Both the position numbers and the translations under genes were made by a program. A stretch of DNA of 49,124 bases from a phage: the sequence record PZ715802.1; one strand, given 5' to 3'. Shown here piece after piece: positions 9,939 to 42,516 of this stretch. Numbering within the stretch: position 1 is the stretch's first letter; each line of letters starts with the position of its first letter. The notes under the pieces were generated by a model. It was not told the DNA's origin. It ran no database searches and worked only from the letters and a program-made list of their open reading frames with translations.

Positions 9939-10427
9939 ATGGCTCAGATTTCAGCAAGTTATCATGTTGCAATGGCTCGCGCCTTGCCTGGTCAAGTTTC
10001 CGACACTTCCGCGTATAACATCGACGGAGCTTGTGTTCTTGAGAATGCAGCAGGCAATCAGAATAAGCCTGTTTTTGTTGGTGTGGCGGTCCAGCATGGC
10101 GGCGTTGATGCCATGGGCAATAAGCTGATTAAGCCGATGGAGGCAAGCGGCAAGGCTTACGGCGTTGCTATTCGATCCAACTTCCAGACCACATCTAAAG
10201 ATGGTCGCATGGTTTATGAGGCTGGTAGCGGAATTAACGTAATGACTAAAGGGCGCGTTTGGATGTTATCTGTAGAGTCGGAAGCGCCAGCATTCAAAAC
10301 AGCTATCAAACTTGATGATTCAGGACAGGTTGATTTAACGTCTGGATTAATTGAAACCACTTGGATCGCAACTGGAGACTTTACGGAATTCCAAGGTCTA
10401 AAACTCGTTGAGGTTCAACTGGTATAA
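9939..10427 (+). CDS. structural protein, paralog A of a tandem pair
   Basis: AAGGAGA RBS; shares YNIDG, NV.T.GR.W and C-terminal ..VQL with 10471-10911. Confidence 0.5.
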   Translation: MAQISASYHVAMARALPGQVSDTSAYNIDGACVLENAAGNQNKPVFVGVAVQHGGVDAMGNKLIKPMEASGKAYGVAIRSNFQTTSKDGRMVYEAGSGINVMTKGRVWMLSVESEAPAFKTAIKLDDSGQVDLTSGLIETTWIATGDFTEFQGLKLVEVQLV

Positions 10428-34704: not shown

Positions 34705-35445
34705 ATGGCTAAAGATATTCAGGACGTAGCAACTATTGACACTTTCGAGCCGGAAATGGATTTTCATGAATTGCAATACGGAAAATATTCAGATATTGCA
34801 TTGCGCTCAGGTGGTCATTATCAGCCAGTTAGAGAAAACCCATTATTTAAGGTTAGCGGCAACCGTTATGCAGGAAGTAAAACGCCGGACGTTGTTCGCG
34901 ATTTGTGGGAAACGCCAGATGAAATTGTTGATTATCTTGCTGAACGTTACGGCAAATATGATCTTGATGCAGCCGCAACGGAAGATAATAAAAAATGCGA
35001 TAAGTTTTACAGCAAAGAAACAAACTGCTTAAAGCGCTGGTGGGGTAGCAATAAGCACGTTTGGTTAAATCCACCATACAGCAATCCAGATCCATTTATC
35101 AAAAAAGCAATTGAGCAGATGGAACACGGAAACCAGATTGATATTTTACTTCCGGCTGATAATTCAACTGCATGGTTTAGTGACGCACAAAAACACGCGG
35201 CAGAAATTATCTGGATTACTGGTGAAACCTGGAAGGATGAAGAAGGTCGCGAATATTCCAGAACTGGTCGAGTAGCGTTTATTTCTGGCATGACAGGTGA
35301 ACAAGTACAGGGCAACAATAAAGGCAGCGTGATTTTTATCATGCGCCAACTTAAAGAAGGTGAGCAACAGCAAACTCACTATGTGAAGATTAGCGACATT
35401 TGCCCTTCCGTAAAAAATAAACGAGCCAAAGCGCGGAGCATTTAA
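34705..35445 (+). CDS. dam: DNA N6-adenine methyltransferase (phage Dam type)
   Basis: ORF track; AGAGG RBS; catalytic NPPY motif in WLNPPYSNP. Confidence 0.8.
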   Translation: MAKDIQDVATIDTFEPEMDFHELQYGKYSDIALRSGGHYQPVRENPLFKVSGNRYAGSKTPDVVRDLWETPDEIVDYLAERYGKYDLDAAATEDNKKCDKFYSKETNCLKRWWGSNKHVWLNPPYSNPDPFIKKAIEQMEHGNQIDILLPADNSTAWFSDAQKHAAEIIWITGETWKDEEGREYSRTGRVAFISGMTGEQVQGNNKGSVIFIMRQLKEGEQQQTHYVKISDICPSVKNKRAKARSI

Positions 35446-39384: not shown

Positions 39385-40965
39385 TTACCCCATTAACGCC
39401 GGATTTACATAAACAAATTTACCAACGCTGCAAACATAATTCTTTTCTTCAAGCATTGGCAATAATTGTTCCTCAATTCGTTTCATCACGCCTGATTGAC
39501 CTGTAAACGGCTTAACCTTACGCGCACTTTCATAGATAGCTCTTGCATTGGTAACGCCTTTATTTTGACGTGAGATCTTAATGATTATTTCAATTAACTT
39601 GCTCATTTCTGCATCATCGCCAGCGTGACCGGAAGCATTCGCGGCGTTGATATATGTTTTGCTTAATTCGCTGAACATCACCAAAGCCTCTTGCATTGTC
39701 TCAACTTCAATTTCTCGCGACTTTTGCGGCGTACCGTTTGGATTAAACCAATTGCGGATCGTGTGCAATACTGACGCAATGCGGATCACTTGCTTATCCA
39801 TTTTGCCCAAAGCACCACGCAACATTGTATGTGAATATTTCCCGCCGTCTGCTAAATCTGGCTCTAATTGCTGGCGAGCAATATTAAGAACACGCATTGC
39901 AGAACGTGACGGCTTCAATACAACATTTTGCTCAGTCATGATGTTATGAATCAACTGGAAATATTGCGCCTTTAATTCTTTATCAACTGGCGTGTAATCA
40001 AGATCACCATTTTCATCAATAAATACACGCTCGCCTAACATTGTTTTTTCACGTACAAGTAAGAAACGTTCACTAACACCGATACCACGCGCCCCTGCAT
40101 CCATGATCCCTTTTATCGTTTCATCCTGGGCAATTACGCTCATGCAGCCCAACGCAACAAAACTCATATTGTTTTCAGAGTTGGCGCGAGCTATTGAAAC
40201 GTGTCCGGCGTCCCATGCTTTTAGAACCAATTCGCTGTTAGTCTTGCGATCACTATTAGCGTAAGTCAATCCGAGTAAGCTGTTGATGCTTGTTGCTTCA
40301 TCGGAAATAACAGCAAAGTTACCCTGGCGATTGTTGATCTTTGCTAACCCTTCCGGCGTGGTGTCTGATACCGGAAAAACGATATCGCACATTTTTTCTA
40401 ACTTTTCCTCTAATTCCTCCTTTTCCTCAAACAACGCAGCTAACTCAGTGCCGGAACGTTCAGCTTTCAATTCCTTTTCAACGCCTTTTAATTTCGCTGC
40501 GATCTTCTTTCGCTCTTTCTTGCGTTGTTCGTTGATGCGCTCAACTTCACAGACCATTGGCGCAATAGCCAGGCTGTTGATTGCTGATTTACCAGTTGAT
40601 GGCGGCTGACTGGTTACAACGTAAAGCGCCGTTGGTTGTTCAGTGCCGTGGTACTCAACTTGGAAGCGTCCAACCATAGCGGCGGAAACGCAACCTATGA
40701 AATGCATATAGGCCGATGATTCAGGAAATTGAACAGATTGCGCAATGCTACGTGACAGTTTACCCACAACATCAACATCATTACCCAAAGAGATCACAGG
40801 ATAACGGTCATTAGCGCCGTTGATATCCTTCACAGGTTCCCAAAAGCTGGACGATTGGCGGTAGCCGTTCGACTGAATAGCAACGCGAAGCGGCGATGTT
40901 CCCTGCGATTCTGCAATGGCTATAACTTGTTGAGGTGTCAATTTGTTGGTGTCAAAGTCAAACAT
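39385..40965 (-). CDS. Walker-A ATPase, possibly replication-associated
   Basis: 526 aa; AAGGAGA RBS; SQPPSTGKSA P-loop-like motif; box element upstream. Confidence 0.5.
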   Translation of the reverse strand: MFDFDTNKLTPQQVIAIAESQGTSPLRVAIQSNGYRQSSSFWEPVKDINGANDRYPVISLGNDVDVVGKLSRSIAQSVQFPESSAYMHFIGCVSAAMVGRFQVEYHGTEQPTALYVVTSQPPSTGKSAINSLAIAPMVCEVERINEQRKKERKKIAAKLKGVEKELKAERSGTELAALFEEKEELEEKLEKMCDIVFPVSDTTPEGLAKINNRQGNFAVISDEATSINSLLGLTYANSDRKTNSELVLKAWDAGHVSIARANSENNMSFVALGCMSVIAQDETIKGIMDAGARGIGVSERFLLVREKTMLGERVFIDENGDLDYTPVDKELKAQYFQLIHNIMTEQNVVLKPSRSAMRVLNIARQQLEPDLADGGKYSHTMLRGALGKMDKQVIRIASVLHTIRNWFNPNGTPQKSREIEVETMQEALVMFSELSKTYINAANASGHAGDDAEMSKLIEIIIKISRQNKGVTNARAIYESARKVKPFTGQSGVMKRIEEQLLPMLEEKNYVCSVGKFVYVNPALMG

Positions 40966-40992: not shown

Positions 40993-41035
40993 ATTATAAC
41001 GGCAACATTCTACAGCCTTTTAGCAATTCGTGCTA
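40993..41035 (-). promoter_or_regulatory. composite box element (minus): TAGCAcgaatTGCTA, 22 nt, TATAAT
   Basis: palindrome 41021-41035; -10-like hexamer in loop of gttgccg/cggcaac hairpin. Confidence 0.6.
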
Positions 41036-41281
41036 TTTGATCGGCTCAACCCTGGCTAATAACTTTCCGTCTATAATGCTATGACATTCAAGAGTTTTAG
41101 GATCGAACGCAAGCGAACGATGGAACGTATGACCAATCAGCAAATATGAATGCTTATCCCTGATGCGATAGACCGTTTCACCTTCCTTTAATGACGATAT
41201 CGCACTAAAAACAACCTTGTAACGATATTTTTGCATAGCCTCAGAACGGTGAGGAATGTAATCTTTTTCCGGTAAACTCAT
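41033..41281 (-). CDS. hypothetical protein
   Basis: ORF track; ATGA overlap; stop is TAG of box. Confidence 0.45.
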   Translation of the reverse strand: MSLPEKDYIPHRSEAMQKYRYKVVFSAISSLKEGETVYRIRDKHSYLLIGHTFHRSLAFDPKTLECHSIIDGKLLARVEPIK

Positions 41282-41640
41282 GAGTATTTGGCCTCAAACA
41301 GATAAGCACCGCCAGCGGCTGAAAATCCAACTTCTTCCCGATACAGAGTGAAACGGTCTCCGTTTTCGTCGAAAACATATCCAGCAACAGCACCTAACAC
41401 GCGGCCTTGTTCGATCTGGTAACGCTTATCGGCTTTGAAAGTTTTCTTGATCTGCATGGAGTGGTTTACCCATGTGCATTTAATGGTTTTGGTCTTAACA
41501 TTTCGGAATGTTAATCCGGTTAAGTTGGCGTGAATCCATTTCCCATCTAACTTAACGAAAGTATCATCATTTTCGTCTACCCGCGCTTTGTATAGGCGGT
41601 TATCAGATCCGATAAGTTTGATTGATTTGAATTTAGCCAT
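41278..41640 (-). CDS. hypothetical protein
   Basis: ORF track; AAAGGAGA RBS. Confidence 0.5.
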   Translation of the reverse strand: MAKFKSIKLIGSDNRLYKARVDENDDTFVKLDGKWIHANLTGLTFRNVKTKTIKCTWVNHSMQIKKTFKADKRYQIEQGRVLGAVAGYVFDENGDRFTLYREEVGFSAAGGAYLFEAKYS

Positions 41641-41673: not shown

Positions 41674-41715
41674 TTATGCCGGATACGTGATCCGGCGTTT
41701 TAACAAAAAGTGCTA
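41674..41715 (-). promoter_or_regulatory. composite box element (minus): TAGCActtttTGTTA, 21 nt, CATAAT
   Basis: palindrome 41701-41715; spacer hairpin gccggatc/gatccggc. Confidence 0.55.
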
Positions 41716-42408
41716 TTTCTGATTTGCCAGGCATACAGCAAGCGCAAAGCCGCGCGGAGTGAGTGAGCGGATCAGCTTTGTTCGCTTAGACTTGCCGCCG
41801 AGCTTTTGCCAGCCTGGATTGTTGTTCCCTGTTGGCAATACTGCGTTTGTATCCGGCATTACAAAGCCGTTACCCGTCCAAAGACAAGTTTTTTTGGTGT
41901 ACGCATCGCGAGCGGGAATGATTTCAGGAAAGTGAGGATGTTTATCATCTTCCGGCAACAGACCTCCAAACGCGCAAGGATGAAAGATAAAATCAGGTTG
42001 CCGCCACATTGACGACAGAACACTAACAGGATTCTCAATCATGTATGGAACGTTAAACCGATCCGCAATATTGGCAGCAATCTTTGCCGTTTCAACCGCC
42101 TTTTTCTGGAAGTCTGGATCACGTTCACGCTTTGCGGCAAAGTGACGCGATCCACTAACAGCTAAATCAGTGCATGGAGGGAATGCAATAATAAAATCTG
42201 GAGTGCCAAAGACGCGCATCATTGCGTTATGCTGGAATGATAATCCGATCCACTCATTCAAATAAACTATGTTGGGATGAGTCACGCGCACTGATTGGTA
42301 ATCACCATGATCAGCACCGTCGAAATTAAAGCACAGCACTTTGTGACCACGTTCAGCCCACGGCAACGCAGCATAACCAGAACCATCAAATAGTGAGAAA
42401 ATAAGCAT
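41713..42408 (-). CDS. compact DNA cytosine-5 methyltransferase-like protein
   Basis: internal ATG of track ORF 41713-42462 with AAAGGA RBS; motif I LFDGSG, motif IV FPPC, motif VI ENP with spacing as in M.HhaI-type enzymes; only about 231 aa. Confidence 0.5.
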   Translation of the reverse strand: MLIFSLFDGSGYAALPWAERGHKVLCFNFDGADHGDYQSVRVTHPNIVYLNEWIGLSFQHNAMMRVFGTPDFIIAFPPCTDLAVSGSRHFAAKRERDPDFQKKAVETAKIAANIADRFNVPYMIENPVSVLSSMWRQPDFIFHPCAFGGLLPEDDKHPHFPEIIPARDAYTKKTCLWTGNGFVMPDTNAVLPTGNNNPGWQKLGGKSKRTKLIRSLTPRGFALAVCLANQK

Positions 42409-42516
42409 GTTTAAATCCTTTCTGTATGACCTTGTAAGGCGTTTTGTTTGTAGGTGTGACAATCGTATTAGTTACGGCCTGAAATCGCGACATAATGCGA
42501 AACAGGCCGCTATTTT

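What the first reader, a model, noticed from the sequence alone, without database searches (positions are those of the whole stretch)
41713..42408. Compact C5-cytosine methyltransferase-like protein, in addition to the Dam-type enzyme
The 231-aa product carries motif I (LFDGSG), motif IV (FPPC) and motif VI (ENP) with the spacing of classical C5 methyltransferases but is too short for a full target-recognition domain. With the NPPY Dam enzyme at 34705-35445 this gives the phage two distinct DNA-modification folds. It may be an orphan methyltransferase with relaxed specificity or a different pyrimidine-modifying enzyme on the same fold.
Basis: partly seen in the sequence, partly recalled or inferred. 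Interest (0 to 1): 0.55.

Follow-up and report, generated by a model that had tools for sequence, protein, structure and literature searches.

The report
Compact phage Dcm-like cytosine methyltransferase
The gene is a real but already annotated, very small DNA cytosine-C5 methyltransferase; it is common in T1-like phages, and a 65%-identical relative has been shown to make 5-methylcytosine and to set off the bacterial retron Ec86 defence.

Summary

It is not new. The window is a Tlsvirus-type Drexlerviridae phage, and the protein is identical to phSE-2 gp61 ("DNA methyltransferase"). The gene is named dcm in phage Tls, belongs to PHROG 757, and occurs in about 1,500 phage records.

A 236-aa enzyme of this family from phage K42 was shown by LC-MS to put 5mC on retron Ec86 msDNA and to trigger that defence. 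A 65%-identical homologue has the published C82/E128/K175/K176 in register with C79/E125/K172/K173 here.

The target-recognition interval really is tiny: 46 aa against 128 in E. coli Dcm. What stays open is the true recognition sequence. CCWGG was assumed from the host enzyme's name, not mapped. "A different pyrimidine modification" is unlikely. The companion Dam (PF05869) is confirmed. Low interest.

The parts
41713..42408 (-). dcm-like gene: 231-aa compact DNA cytosine-C5 methyltransferase (stop codon 41713-41715)
42416..42420 (-). Shine-Dalgarno AAGGA, 7 nt upstream of the ATG at 42408
   Evidence: Read from the sequence. Phage K42 escape mutants carried a point mutation 9 bp upstream of their dcm start codon, so this region matters for expression in a relative.
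42376..42393 (-). Motif I, LFDGSG (residues 6-11): predicted SAM-binding glycine loop after strand 1
   Evidence: G9/S10/G11 are invariant in alignment A1. It aligns with the motif I region of DNMT3B and M.HaeIII in the profile search against PDB sequences.
42172..42183 (-). Motif IV, FPPC (residues 76-79): catalytic nucleophile Cys79
   Evidence: P78/C79 are invariant. It aligns to the PC of DNMT3B and to the FPCQ of E. coli Dcm. Cys79 is equivalent to C82 of phage K42 Dcm, which was mutated in the inactive control.
42028..42036 (-). Motif VI, ENP (residues 125-127): counterpart of the ENV glutamate that protonates cytosine N3
   Evidence: E125/N126/P127 are invariant. E125 is equivalent to E128 of K42 Dcm.
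41878..41907 (-). Motif VIII-like segment DAYTKKTCLW (residues 168-177), with K172/K173
   Evidence: D168, Y170, K172, T174 and W177 are at least 90% conserved. K172/K173 are equivalent to the K175/K176 that the K42 authors called substrate-binding residues. Assignment to motif VIII is my inference from order and spacing.
41800..41853 (-). Variable loop, residues 186-203 (DTNAVLPTGNNNPGWQKL): candidate minimal target-recognition element, 'NPGW' subtype
   Evidence: This is the most variable block of the C-terminal half (entropy 2.73 for residues 191-200) and relatives carry insertions here; lower pLDDT, 81-83. The family splits into NPGW, GYSxQ and other subtypes. The SECphi27/K42-type enzyme is NPGW like this one. 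Its role in recognition is inferred, not shown.
41737..41769 (-). Motif IX-like RSLTPRGFALA (residues 214-224), followed by N229 (invariant among the 31 close relatives) at 41722-41724
   Evidence: R214, S215, P218, G220 and A224 are at least 90% conserved. The segment is directly comparable to RRLTPRECARL of E. coli Dcm. No classical motif X (GN[AS]V) can be recognised; N229 is invariant in A1.
34705..35445 (+). Companion phage Dam (N6-adenine methyltransferase, NPPY at 35068-35079); a separate gene, not part of one system with dcm
   Evidence: PF05869 Dam, E 6.6e-63. Annotated dam in Tls and 'DNA methyltransferase' in phSE-2.

Best explanation
The gene encodes an orphan, SAM-dependent DNA cytosine-C5 methyltransferase of the compact 'phage Dcm-like' family (PHROG 757). 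It is expressed from the leftward cluster of small genes next to the DUF3987 helicase gene.

Mechanism, inferred from the conserved C5-MTase chemistry:
- The motif I loop (F7-x-G9-S10-G11) binds SAM.
- A target cytosine is flipped out.
- Cys79 (motif IV, PPC) attacks C6.
- Glu125 (motif VI, ENP) protonates N3.
- The methyl group is transferred to C5, and Cys79 is then eliminated.

Recognition must rely on a very small element, about 20-35 residues around the variable 186-203 loop, instead of the usual 80-130-aa domain. The enzyme methylates phage DNA, and any other DNA in the cell. The target is most probably the inner C of CCWGG, as for host Dcm. That would make the phage independent of host Dcm for protection against EcoRII-type restriction. 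The cost is that the methylation can be sensed by retron Ec86/Eco1.

Shown: fold, motifs, family membership, and (for a 65%-identical relative, in the literature) 5mC formation. Inferred: activity of this particular protein, its CCWGG specificity and its anti-restriction role.
For: Family and annotation:
- PHROG 757, E 1.5e-86.
- 5,404 homologues; 1,534 phage records, many annotated dcm or C5-methylase.
- Identical to phSE-2 gp61; 87% identical to Tls dcm.

Fold:
- AF2 pLDDT 91.1, pTM 0.89.
- Foldseek's best PDB hits are DNMT3A/3B.

Sequence:
- 16 of 31 relatives hit PF00145 at E<=1. P0078, P0091 and P0112 exceed its gathering score, with 24.7-28.5 bits against 22.
- The catalytic residues are invariant.

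Experiment in a relative (Wang et al., bioRxiv 10.1101/2023.08.16.553469; published as Cell Rep 2024;43:114857):
- Phage K42 dcm is 711 bp.
- Four retron-Ec86 escape mutants all hit dcm.
- Expressing Dcm alone raised 5mC in msDNA by LC-MS. The C82A/E128A/K175A/K176A mutant did not.
- Changing the msDNA CCTGG site abolished defence.
- The SECphi27 homologue is also 711 bp, is 65% identical to this protein, and places C82/E128/K175/K176 exactly on C79/E125/K172/K173.

Genome statistics consistent with CCWGG and GATC being protected sites:
- CCWGG 108 against 41.8 +/- 6.3 in shuffles; GATC 284 against 184 expected.
- The one-base variant CCSGG is absent: 0 against 45.
Against: - No experiment was done on this protein or this phage.
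- The query itself gets no Pfam or NCBIfam hit.
- Profile comparison with E. coli Dcm aligns only the PC motif, so it is not a copy of the host enzyme.
- The CCWGG specificity of the K42 enzyme was assumed from host Dcm and supported only by loss-of-defence mutants of the msDNA site. Those mutants could also act by disturbing effector binding.
- Phage T1, which lacks this gene, does not avoid CCWGG either: 83 against 72 expected. So the site statistics do not prove that the phage enzyme is what protects CCWGG.
- The BASEL study found no simple link between methyltransferase genes and restriction resistance in Drexlerviridae.
Confidence: 0.72

Rival explanations
1. It is an active C5-methyltransferase, but its recognition sequence is not host-Dcm-like CCWGG. 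With such a small recognition element it may read a shorter or different site (2-4 bp, like DNMT3 at CpG or CmoX at GC), or need dimerisation to read a palindrome.
For: - The motif VIII-to-IX interval is only 46 aa, against 128 in E. coli Dcm.
- The closest solved folds are DNMT3A/3B, which read 2 bp.
- There is no detectable similarity to Dcm outside the catalytic motifs.
- In the K42 work the motif was taken from the literature on host Dcm, not mapped. msDNA had low 5mC in the vector control even though (from general knowledge, not stated in the paper) the MG1655 host is dcm+.
- The recognition-loop region differs between subfamilies (NPGW, GYSxQ, others), which suggests several specificities within the family.
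Against: - Mutating either C of the msDNA CCTGG abolished K42-triggered defence.
- This protein has the same NPGW loop subtype as the K42-type enzyme.
- In this genome and in Tls, every CCNGG is CCWGG (108 and 115 sites) and CCSGG is purged. That is what W-specific protection would allow.
- Dense methylation at a short site would create many RmC sites. These phages grow on K-12 hosts, which from general knowledge carry McrBC (inference).
Confidence: 0.2
2. It transfers a group other than methyl, for example carboxymethyl from carboxy-SAM like phage CmoX. That would make it 'a different pyrimidine-modifying enzyme on the same fold'.
For: - E. coli CmoA can supply carboxy-SAM to such enzymes in vivo (PMC12783734).
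Against: - CmoX scores no better than ordinary C5-MTases.
- The K42 relative produced 5mC by LC-MS against a standard.
- CmoX-type enzymes depend on an Arg at the motif X Asn position and usually sit next to cmoA and ligase genes. None of the four small neighbouring ORFs or the adjacent helicase matched CmoA or a ligase family in Pfam, and none is annotated as such in the flanking 8 kb of phSE-2.
- The conserved C-terminal polar residue is Asn229, not Arg. Its structural equivalence to the motif X Asn could not be checked.
Confidence: 0.03
3. It is a catalytically dead or non-DNA enzyme: a DNMT3L-like regulator or a Dnmt2-like tRNA m5C methyltransferase.
For: - The protein lacks a recognisable motif X and a classical target-recognition domain.
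Against: - All catalytic residues are invariant over hundreds of relatives, so it is not a degenerate paralogue.
- DNA MTases score higher than Dnmt2.
- The K42 enzyme methylated DNA (msDNA) in vivo, and its catalytic mutant did not.
Confidence: 0.03

Closest known systems
Phage K42 (KarlJaspers-like, Drexlerviridae) Dcm, the trigger of retron Ec86/Eco1 (Wang et al., Cell Rep 2024;43:114857; preprint 10.1101/2023.08.16.553469)
   Same: Same family and architecture: 236 vs 231 aa. The SECphi27-type 711-bp homologue is 65% identical over the full length, and the published C82/E128/K175/K176 fall on C79/E125/K172/K173. Both have the NPGW variable-loop subtype. Both genes sit upstream of the DUF3987-type helicase gene, with two small ORFs between.
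   Different: 35% sequence divergence; a different genus (Tlsvirus vs Warwickvirus-type). Nothing has been tested for this protein. I could not retrieve the K42 sequence itself, so the link rests on gene length, residue numbering and taxonomy.
Tls dcm (PTLS_gp75) and phSE-2 gp61, annotated DNA methyltransferases of Tlsvirus phages; PHROG 757
   Same: 100% identical to phSE-2 gp61 and 87% to Tls dcm, in the same genomic position. PHROG 757, E 1.5e-86.
   Different: None in substance. Tls annotates a longer 780-bp CDS from an upstream start. The ATG at 42408 with its AAGGA site is the better start.
Classical bacterial C5-MTases (Pfam PF00145: E. coli Dcm, M.HhaI, M.HaeIII)
   Different: 231 aa against 327-472 aa. 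The variable region is about 80 aa shorter (46 vs 128 aa). There is no recognisable GN[AS]V motif X. The query is below Pfam's threshold, and relatives match only profile positions 4-97 of 324. No sequence similarity to E. coli Dcm beyond the motifs.
DNMT3A/DNMT3B catalytic domains
   Different: 12-19% identity. DNMT3 enzymes work as oligomers with large regulatory N-terminal regions and read CpG. Nothing shows that the phage enzyme oligomerises.

Membership tests
DNA cytosine-C5 methyltransferases (PF00145-type) | Class I SAM-methyltransferase fold closest to solved C5-MTases | tested here: met
DNA cytosine-C5 methyltransferases (PF00145-type) | Motif I FxGxG, motif IV Pro-Cys nucleophile, motif VI ENV-type glutamate, in that order | tested here: met
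   FDGSG at residue 7, FPPC at 76, ENP at 125. These positions are invariant in the family. The PC motif aligns with DNMT3B, M.HaeIII and Dcm.
DNA cytosine-C5 methyltransferases (PF00145-type) | Score above Pfam's PF00145 gathering threshold | tested here: inconclusive
   The query has no Pfam hit. Relatives at 58-60% identity (P0078, P0091, P0112) score 24.7-28.5 bits against a cut-off of 22, covering only motifs I-IV. 16 of 31 relatives hit at E<=1.
DNA cytosine-C5 methyltransferases (PF00145-type) | Motifs VIII (QxRxR), IX and X (GN[AS]V), and a target-recognition domain between VIII and IX | tested here: inconclusive
   A conserved D-x-Y-x-K-K-T-C-x-W segment and an RSLTPRG segment occupy the expected positions. 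The latter resembles the RRLTPRE of Dcm. No GN[AS]V is present, only an invariant C-terminal N229. The interval is 46 aa. Residue-level structural superposition was not available.
DNA cytosine-C5 methyltransferases (PF00145-type) | Formation of 5-methylcytosine in DNA from SAM | not testable with these tools
   Shown only for the K42 relative, by LC-MS with a catalytic-mutant control.
Compact phage Dcm-like family (PHROG 757; K42 Dcm, Tls dcm) | Full-length similarity, length about 210-260 aa, conserved catalytic and K-K residues | tested here: met
   PHROG 757, E 1.5e-86, over residues 1-230. 65% identity with in-register residues to the SECphi27/K42-type enzyme. Most of the best 150 of the 1,231 representative clusters are 210-260 aa long.
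Compact phage Dcm-like family (PHROG 757; K42 Dcm, Tls dcm) | CCWGG specificity (the reason for the name 'Dcm') | not testable with these tools
   Only indirect evidence. CCWGG is enriched and CCSGG absent in this genome. In the literature the motif was assumed and supported by msDNA site mutants.
CmoX-type cytosine C5-carboxymethyltransferases | Arg at the motif X Asn position, an SPPC motif, and neighbouring cmoA/ligase genes (PMC12783734) | tested here: not met

The most novel reading that the evidence does not exclude
This compact family may be the smallest natural sequence-specific DNA C5-methyltransferase. It may read its site with a loop of about 20 residues (NPGW subtype here). Its true specificity may differ from host Dcm, or vary between loop subtypes (NPGW, GYSxQ, insertion-bearing forms). 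If so, the label 'Dcm' and the assumed CCWGG target in the retron Ec86 model would need revising.
Probability: 0.2. Interest if true: 0.45.

Novelty: already known. Interest (0 to 1): 0.2.

Why it matters
For this window, very little. The gene is correctly described by existing annotation, and a close relative has been characterised.

It does carry some practical meaning. Phages with this gene should be self-sufficient for cytosine methylation on dcm-minus hosts such as E. coli B. They should also be sensitive to retron Ec86/Eco1, which senses this activity.

The one question still worth asking is biochemical. How does a 231-aa enzyme with a 46-aa variable interval achieve sequence specificity, and is that specificity really CCWGG? 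A minimal, well-folded C5-methyltransferase scaffold could also be useful for enzyme engineering.

Tried and rejected
- Pfam and NCBIfam scans of the query found nothing. Single-sequence search of PDB sequences found only noise.
- hhalign of the family profile against E. coli Dcm aligned only the PC motif. I tried the tool's comparison and my own 221-sequence profile, in global and local modes. So motifs VIII-X could not be mapped by sequence.
- The fold-search tools give no residue-level superposition. I therefore could not test whether N229 occupies the motif X Asn position.
- The Cell Reports version of the K42 paper is not held; I used the preprint. I could not retrieve the K42 or KarlJaspers sequence and used SECphi27, with FritzSarasin's 'Dcm-like' annotation as supporting evidence.
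- A literature search for phage methylomes of Drexlerviridae returned nothing relevant.
- I tried to infer specificity from site statistics. CCWGG enrichment is real, but T1, which lacks the gene, does not avoid CCWGG either, so the test is not decisive.
- I considered a trans-acting recognition subunit, as in M.AquI, and rejected it. K42 Dcm expressed alone was sufficient in vivo, and the small neighbouring ORFs have no informative matches.
- The promoter/terminator scan around the gene gave fewer hits than shuffles and was not used.

Full report
**Observation**

The ORF is real. It runs from ATG 42408 to the stop at 41713-41715 on the minus strand and encodes 231 aa. An AAGGA Shine-Dalgarno lies at 42416-42420, 7 nt upstream of the ATG. 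An in-frame TTG at 42462 would give 249 aa. However, many homologues start at the ATG, and RefSeq annotates the same 696-bp CDS in phage phSE-2.

They are not chance matches. G9/S10/G11, P78/C79 and E125/N126/P127 are invariant in 31 relatives reaching down to 57% identity. C79, E125, N126 and P127 remain at least 90% conserved in 221 relatives reaching about 35% identity.

The second enzyme at 34705-35445 is a phage Dam (PF05869, E 6.6e-63), with NPPY at 35068-35079.

**What the window is**

The region is 99% identical to Tlsvirus-type Drexlerviridae phages of Salmonella, Citrobacter and E. coli, including phSE-2, Mishu, Sazh and Stevie.

- The protein is 100% identical to phSE-2 gp61, annotated "DNA methyltransferase".
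- It is 87% identical to the gene named dcm in phage Tls.
- It matches PHROG 757 "DNA methyltransferase" at E 1.5e-86 over its whole length.
- Relatives occur in 1,534 phage records: Drexlerviridae, HK578-like phages and larger phages of 136-176 kb.
- There are 5,404 hits in the 90%-clustered protein set and 1,231 representative clusters at 50% identity. Most of the best 150 are 210-260 aa long, so compactness is a family trait, not a truncation.

**Is it a C5-methyltransferase?**

Sequence evidence on the query alone is weak. There is no Pfam or NCBIfam hit. Profile comparison with E. coli Dcm aligns only the Pro-Cys motif.

Relatives give more:

- 16 of 31 relatives hit PF00145 at E<=1.
- Three relatives at 58-60% identity exceed its gathering score (24.7-28.5 bits against 22), over motifs I-IV only.
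- The family profile finds DNMT3B and M.HaeIII as the best PDB sequences, aligned from motif I to the PC motif.

Structure evidence is clear:

- The AlphaFold2 model is confident (pLDDT 91.1, pTM 0.89).
- Foldseek agrees.

**Anatomy**

Motif positions compare with E. coli Dcm as follows:

| Interval | This protein | E. coli Dcm |
|---|---|---|
| I to IV | 69 aa | 82 aa |
| IV to VI | 49 aa | 49 aa |
| VI to VIII(-like) | 45 aa | 50 aa |
| VIII(-like) to IX(-like) | 46 aa | 128 aa |

- The RSLTPRGFALA segment resembles RRLTPRECARL of Dcm.
- The protein ends 7 residues after that segment, with N229 (invariant in A1) two residues from the end. No GN[AS]V motif X can be seen.
- The most variable block of the C-terminal half, where relatives also carry insertions, is residues 191-200. 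It sits within 186-203 (DTNAVLPTGNNNPGWQKL) and has the lowest confidence in that half of the model.
- The family splits there into an NPGW type (this protein and the SECphi27 type), a GYSxQ type and others with insertions.
- I take this loop as the candidate minimal recognition element. That is an inference.

**What is already known experimentally**

Wang et al. (bioRxiv 10.1101/2023.08.16.553469; cited as Cell Rep 2024;43:114857) studied phage K42, a KarlJaspers-like Drexlerviridae phage.

- They isolated K42 mutants that escape retron Ec86. All four had lesions in or just upstream of a 711-bp dcm gene.
- Expressing that Dcm alone was toxic only in cells carrying the retron.
- LC-MS showed high 5mC in msDNA with wild-type Dcm and low 5mC with a C82A/E128A/K175A/K176A mutant or empty vector.
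- Replacing the msDNA CCTGG with AATGG, ACTGG or CATGG abolished defence.
- 34 of 35 Ec86-sensitive phages encoded such a Dcm.

The SECphi27 homologue is also exactly 711 bp and 65% identical to this protein. Its C82, E128, K175 and K176 align with C79, E125, K172 and K173 here. The BASEL phage FritzSarasin annotates the same gene as "Dcm-like C5 cytosine methyltransferase". The BASEL paper notes that such enzymes are abundant in Drexlerviridae, but found no simple link to restriction resistance. The family is therefore known and partly characterised.

**What remains open**

In the K42 work the CCWGG target was taken over from host Dcm rather than mapped. The site mutants could also act through effector binding. 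The enzyme shares no recognition domain with Dcm.

I looked for indirect evidence in the genome:

| Site | Window (observed / expected from base composition) | Tls | T1 (lacks the gene) |
|---|---|---|---|
| CCWGG | 108 / 59 | 115 / 59 | 83 / 72 |
| CCSGG | 0 / 45 | 0 / 44 | 65 / 60 |
| GGNCC | 1 / 104 | 2 / 103 | 52 / 131 |
| GATC | 284 / 184 | 281 / 187 | 235 / 188 |

- CCWGG also exceeds dinucleotide-preserving shuffles, which give 41.8 +/- 6.3, with none of 100 reaching 108.
- CCWGG and GATC are among the most enriched palindromes. The one-base variant CCSGG is completely absent and GGNCC occurs once.
- This fits a phage whose CCWGG and GATC sites are protected while other sites had to be purged. 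It argues against a specificity as broad as CCNGG.
- T1 lacks the gene by tblastn and does not avoid CCWGG either, so the argument is suggestive only.

**Rivals**

- A CmoX-like carboxymethyltransferase is unlikely. The relative made 5mC, and no cmoA or ligase was found among the scanned or annotated neighbours. The motif is FPPC rather than SPPC, and the conserved C-terminal residue is Asn rather than Arg.
- A dead or tRNA-directed enzyme is unlikely, given invariant catalytic residues and DNA methylation by the relative.
- A specificity different from CCWGG is the only rival with real weight (about 0.2).

**Verdict**

The feature is already known. Interest is low. The only residual question is how such a minimal enzyme recognises its site, and which site that is.

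Noticed in passing
whole window (the single GGWCC is at 10088); also Tls = L006:1-49902: Near-total purge of two restriction-type sites. GGNCC occurs once against about 104 expected from base composition. CCSGG occurs 0 times against about 45. Every one of the 108 CCNGG sites is CCWGG. Tls shows the same (2 GGNCC, 0 CCSGG), whereas phage T1 has 52 and 65. This suggests strong past selection by GGNCC- and CCSGG-cutting enzymes of the enterobacterial hosts of Tlsvirus phages.
   Followed up: partly
whole window: Other depleted palindromes: CTNAG 54 vs 184 expected (T1: 197), TCGA 97 vs 184 (T1: 202), GTAC 66 vs 184, CTAG 20 vs 184. CTWGG/CCWAG is about 0.6 of the Markov expectation in both this phage and T1. 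From memory, that resembles the known Vsr very-short-patch repair signature of E. coli.
   Followed up: partly
34705-35445 (+): The T1-type Dam (PF05869) co-resides with the Dcm-like enzyme. A paper read here states that Dam as well as Dcm methylation of msDNA is among the reported phage triggers of retrons (PMC12640716). Both of this phage's methyltransferases are therefore potential liabilities in retron-bearing hosts.
   Followed up: no
39385-40965 (-) and 41033-41640 (-): Downstream of dcm lie two small ORFs (120 aa and 82 aa, no significant family match) and a 526-aa DUF3987 protein annotated as DNA helicase in relatives (E 5.9e-43). The order dcm, two small ORFs, helicase is kept in Tls, phSE-2 and SECphi27. 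T1 has the helicase but no dcm.
   Followed up: partly
BFVD hits A0A6J5SE15 (1397 aa) and A0A6J5NPY6 (1126 aa), not in the window: In some uncultured phages a domain with this compact methyltransferase fold (24-29% identity, TM about 0.65) is part of a very large protein. One of these is annotated with a helicase/UvrB N-terminal domain.
   Followed up: no
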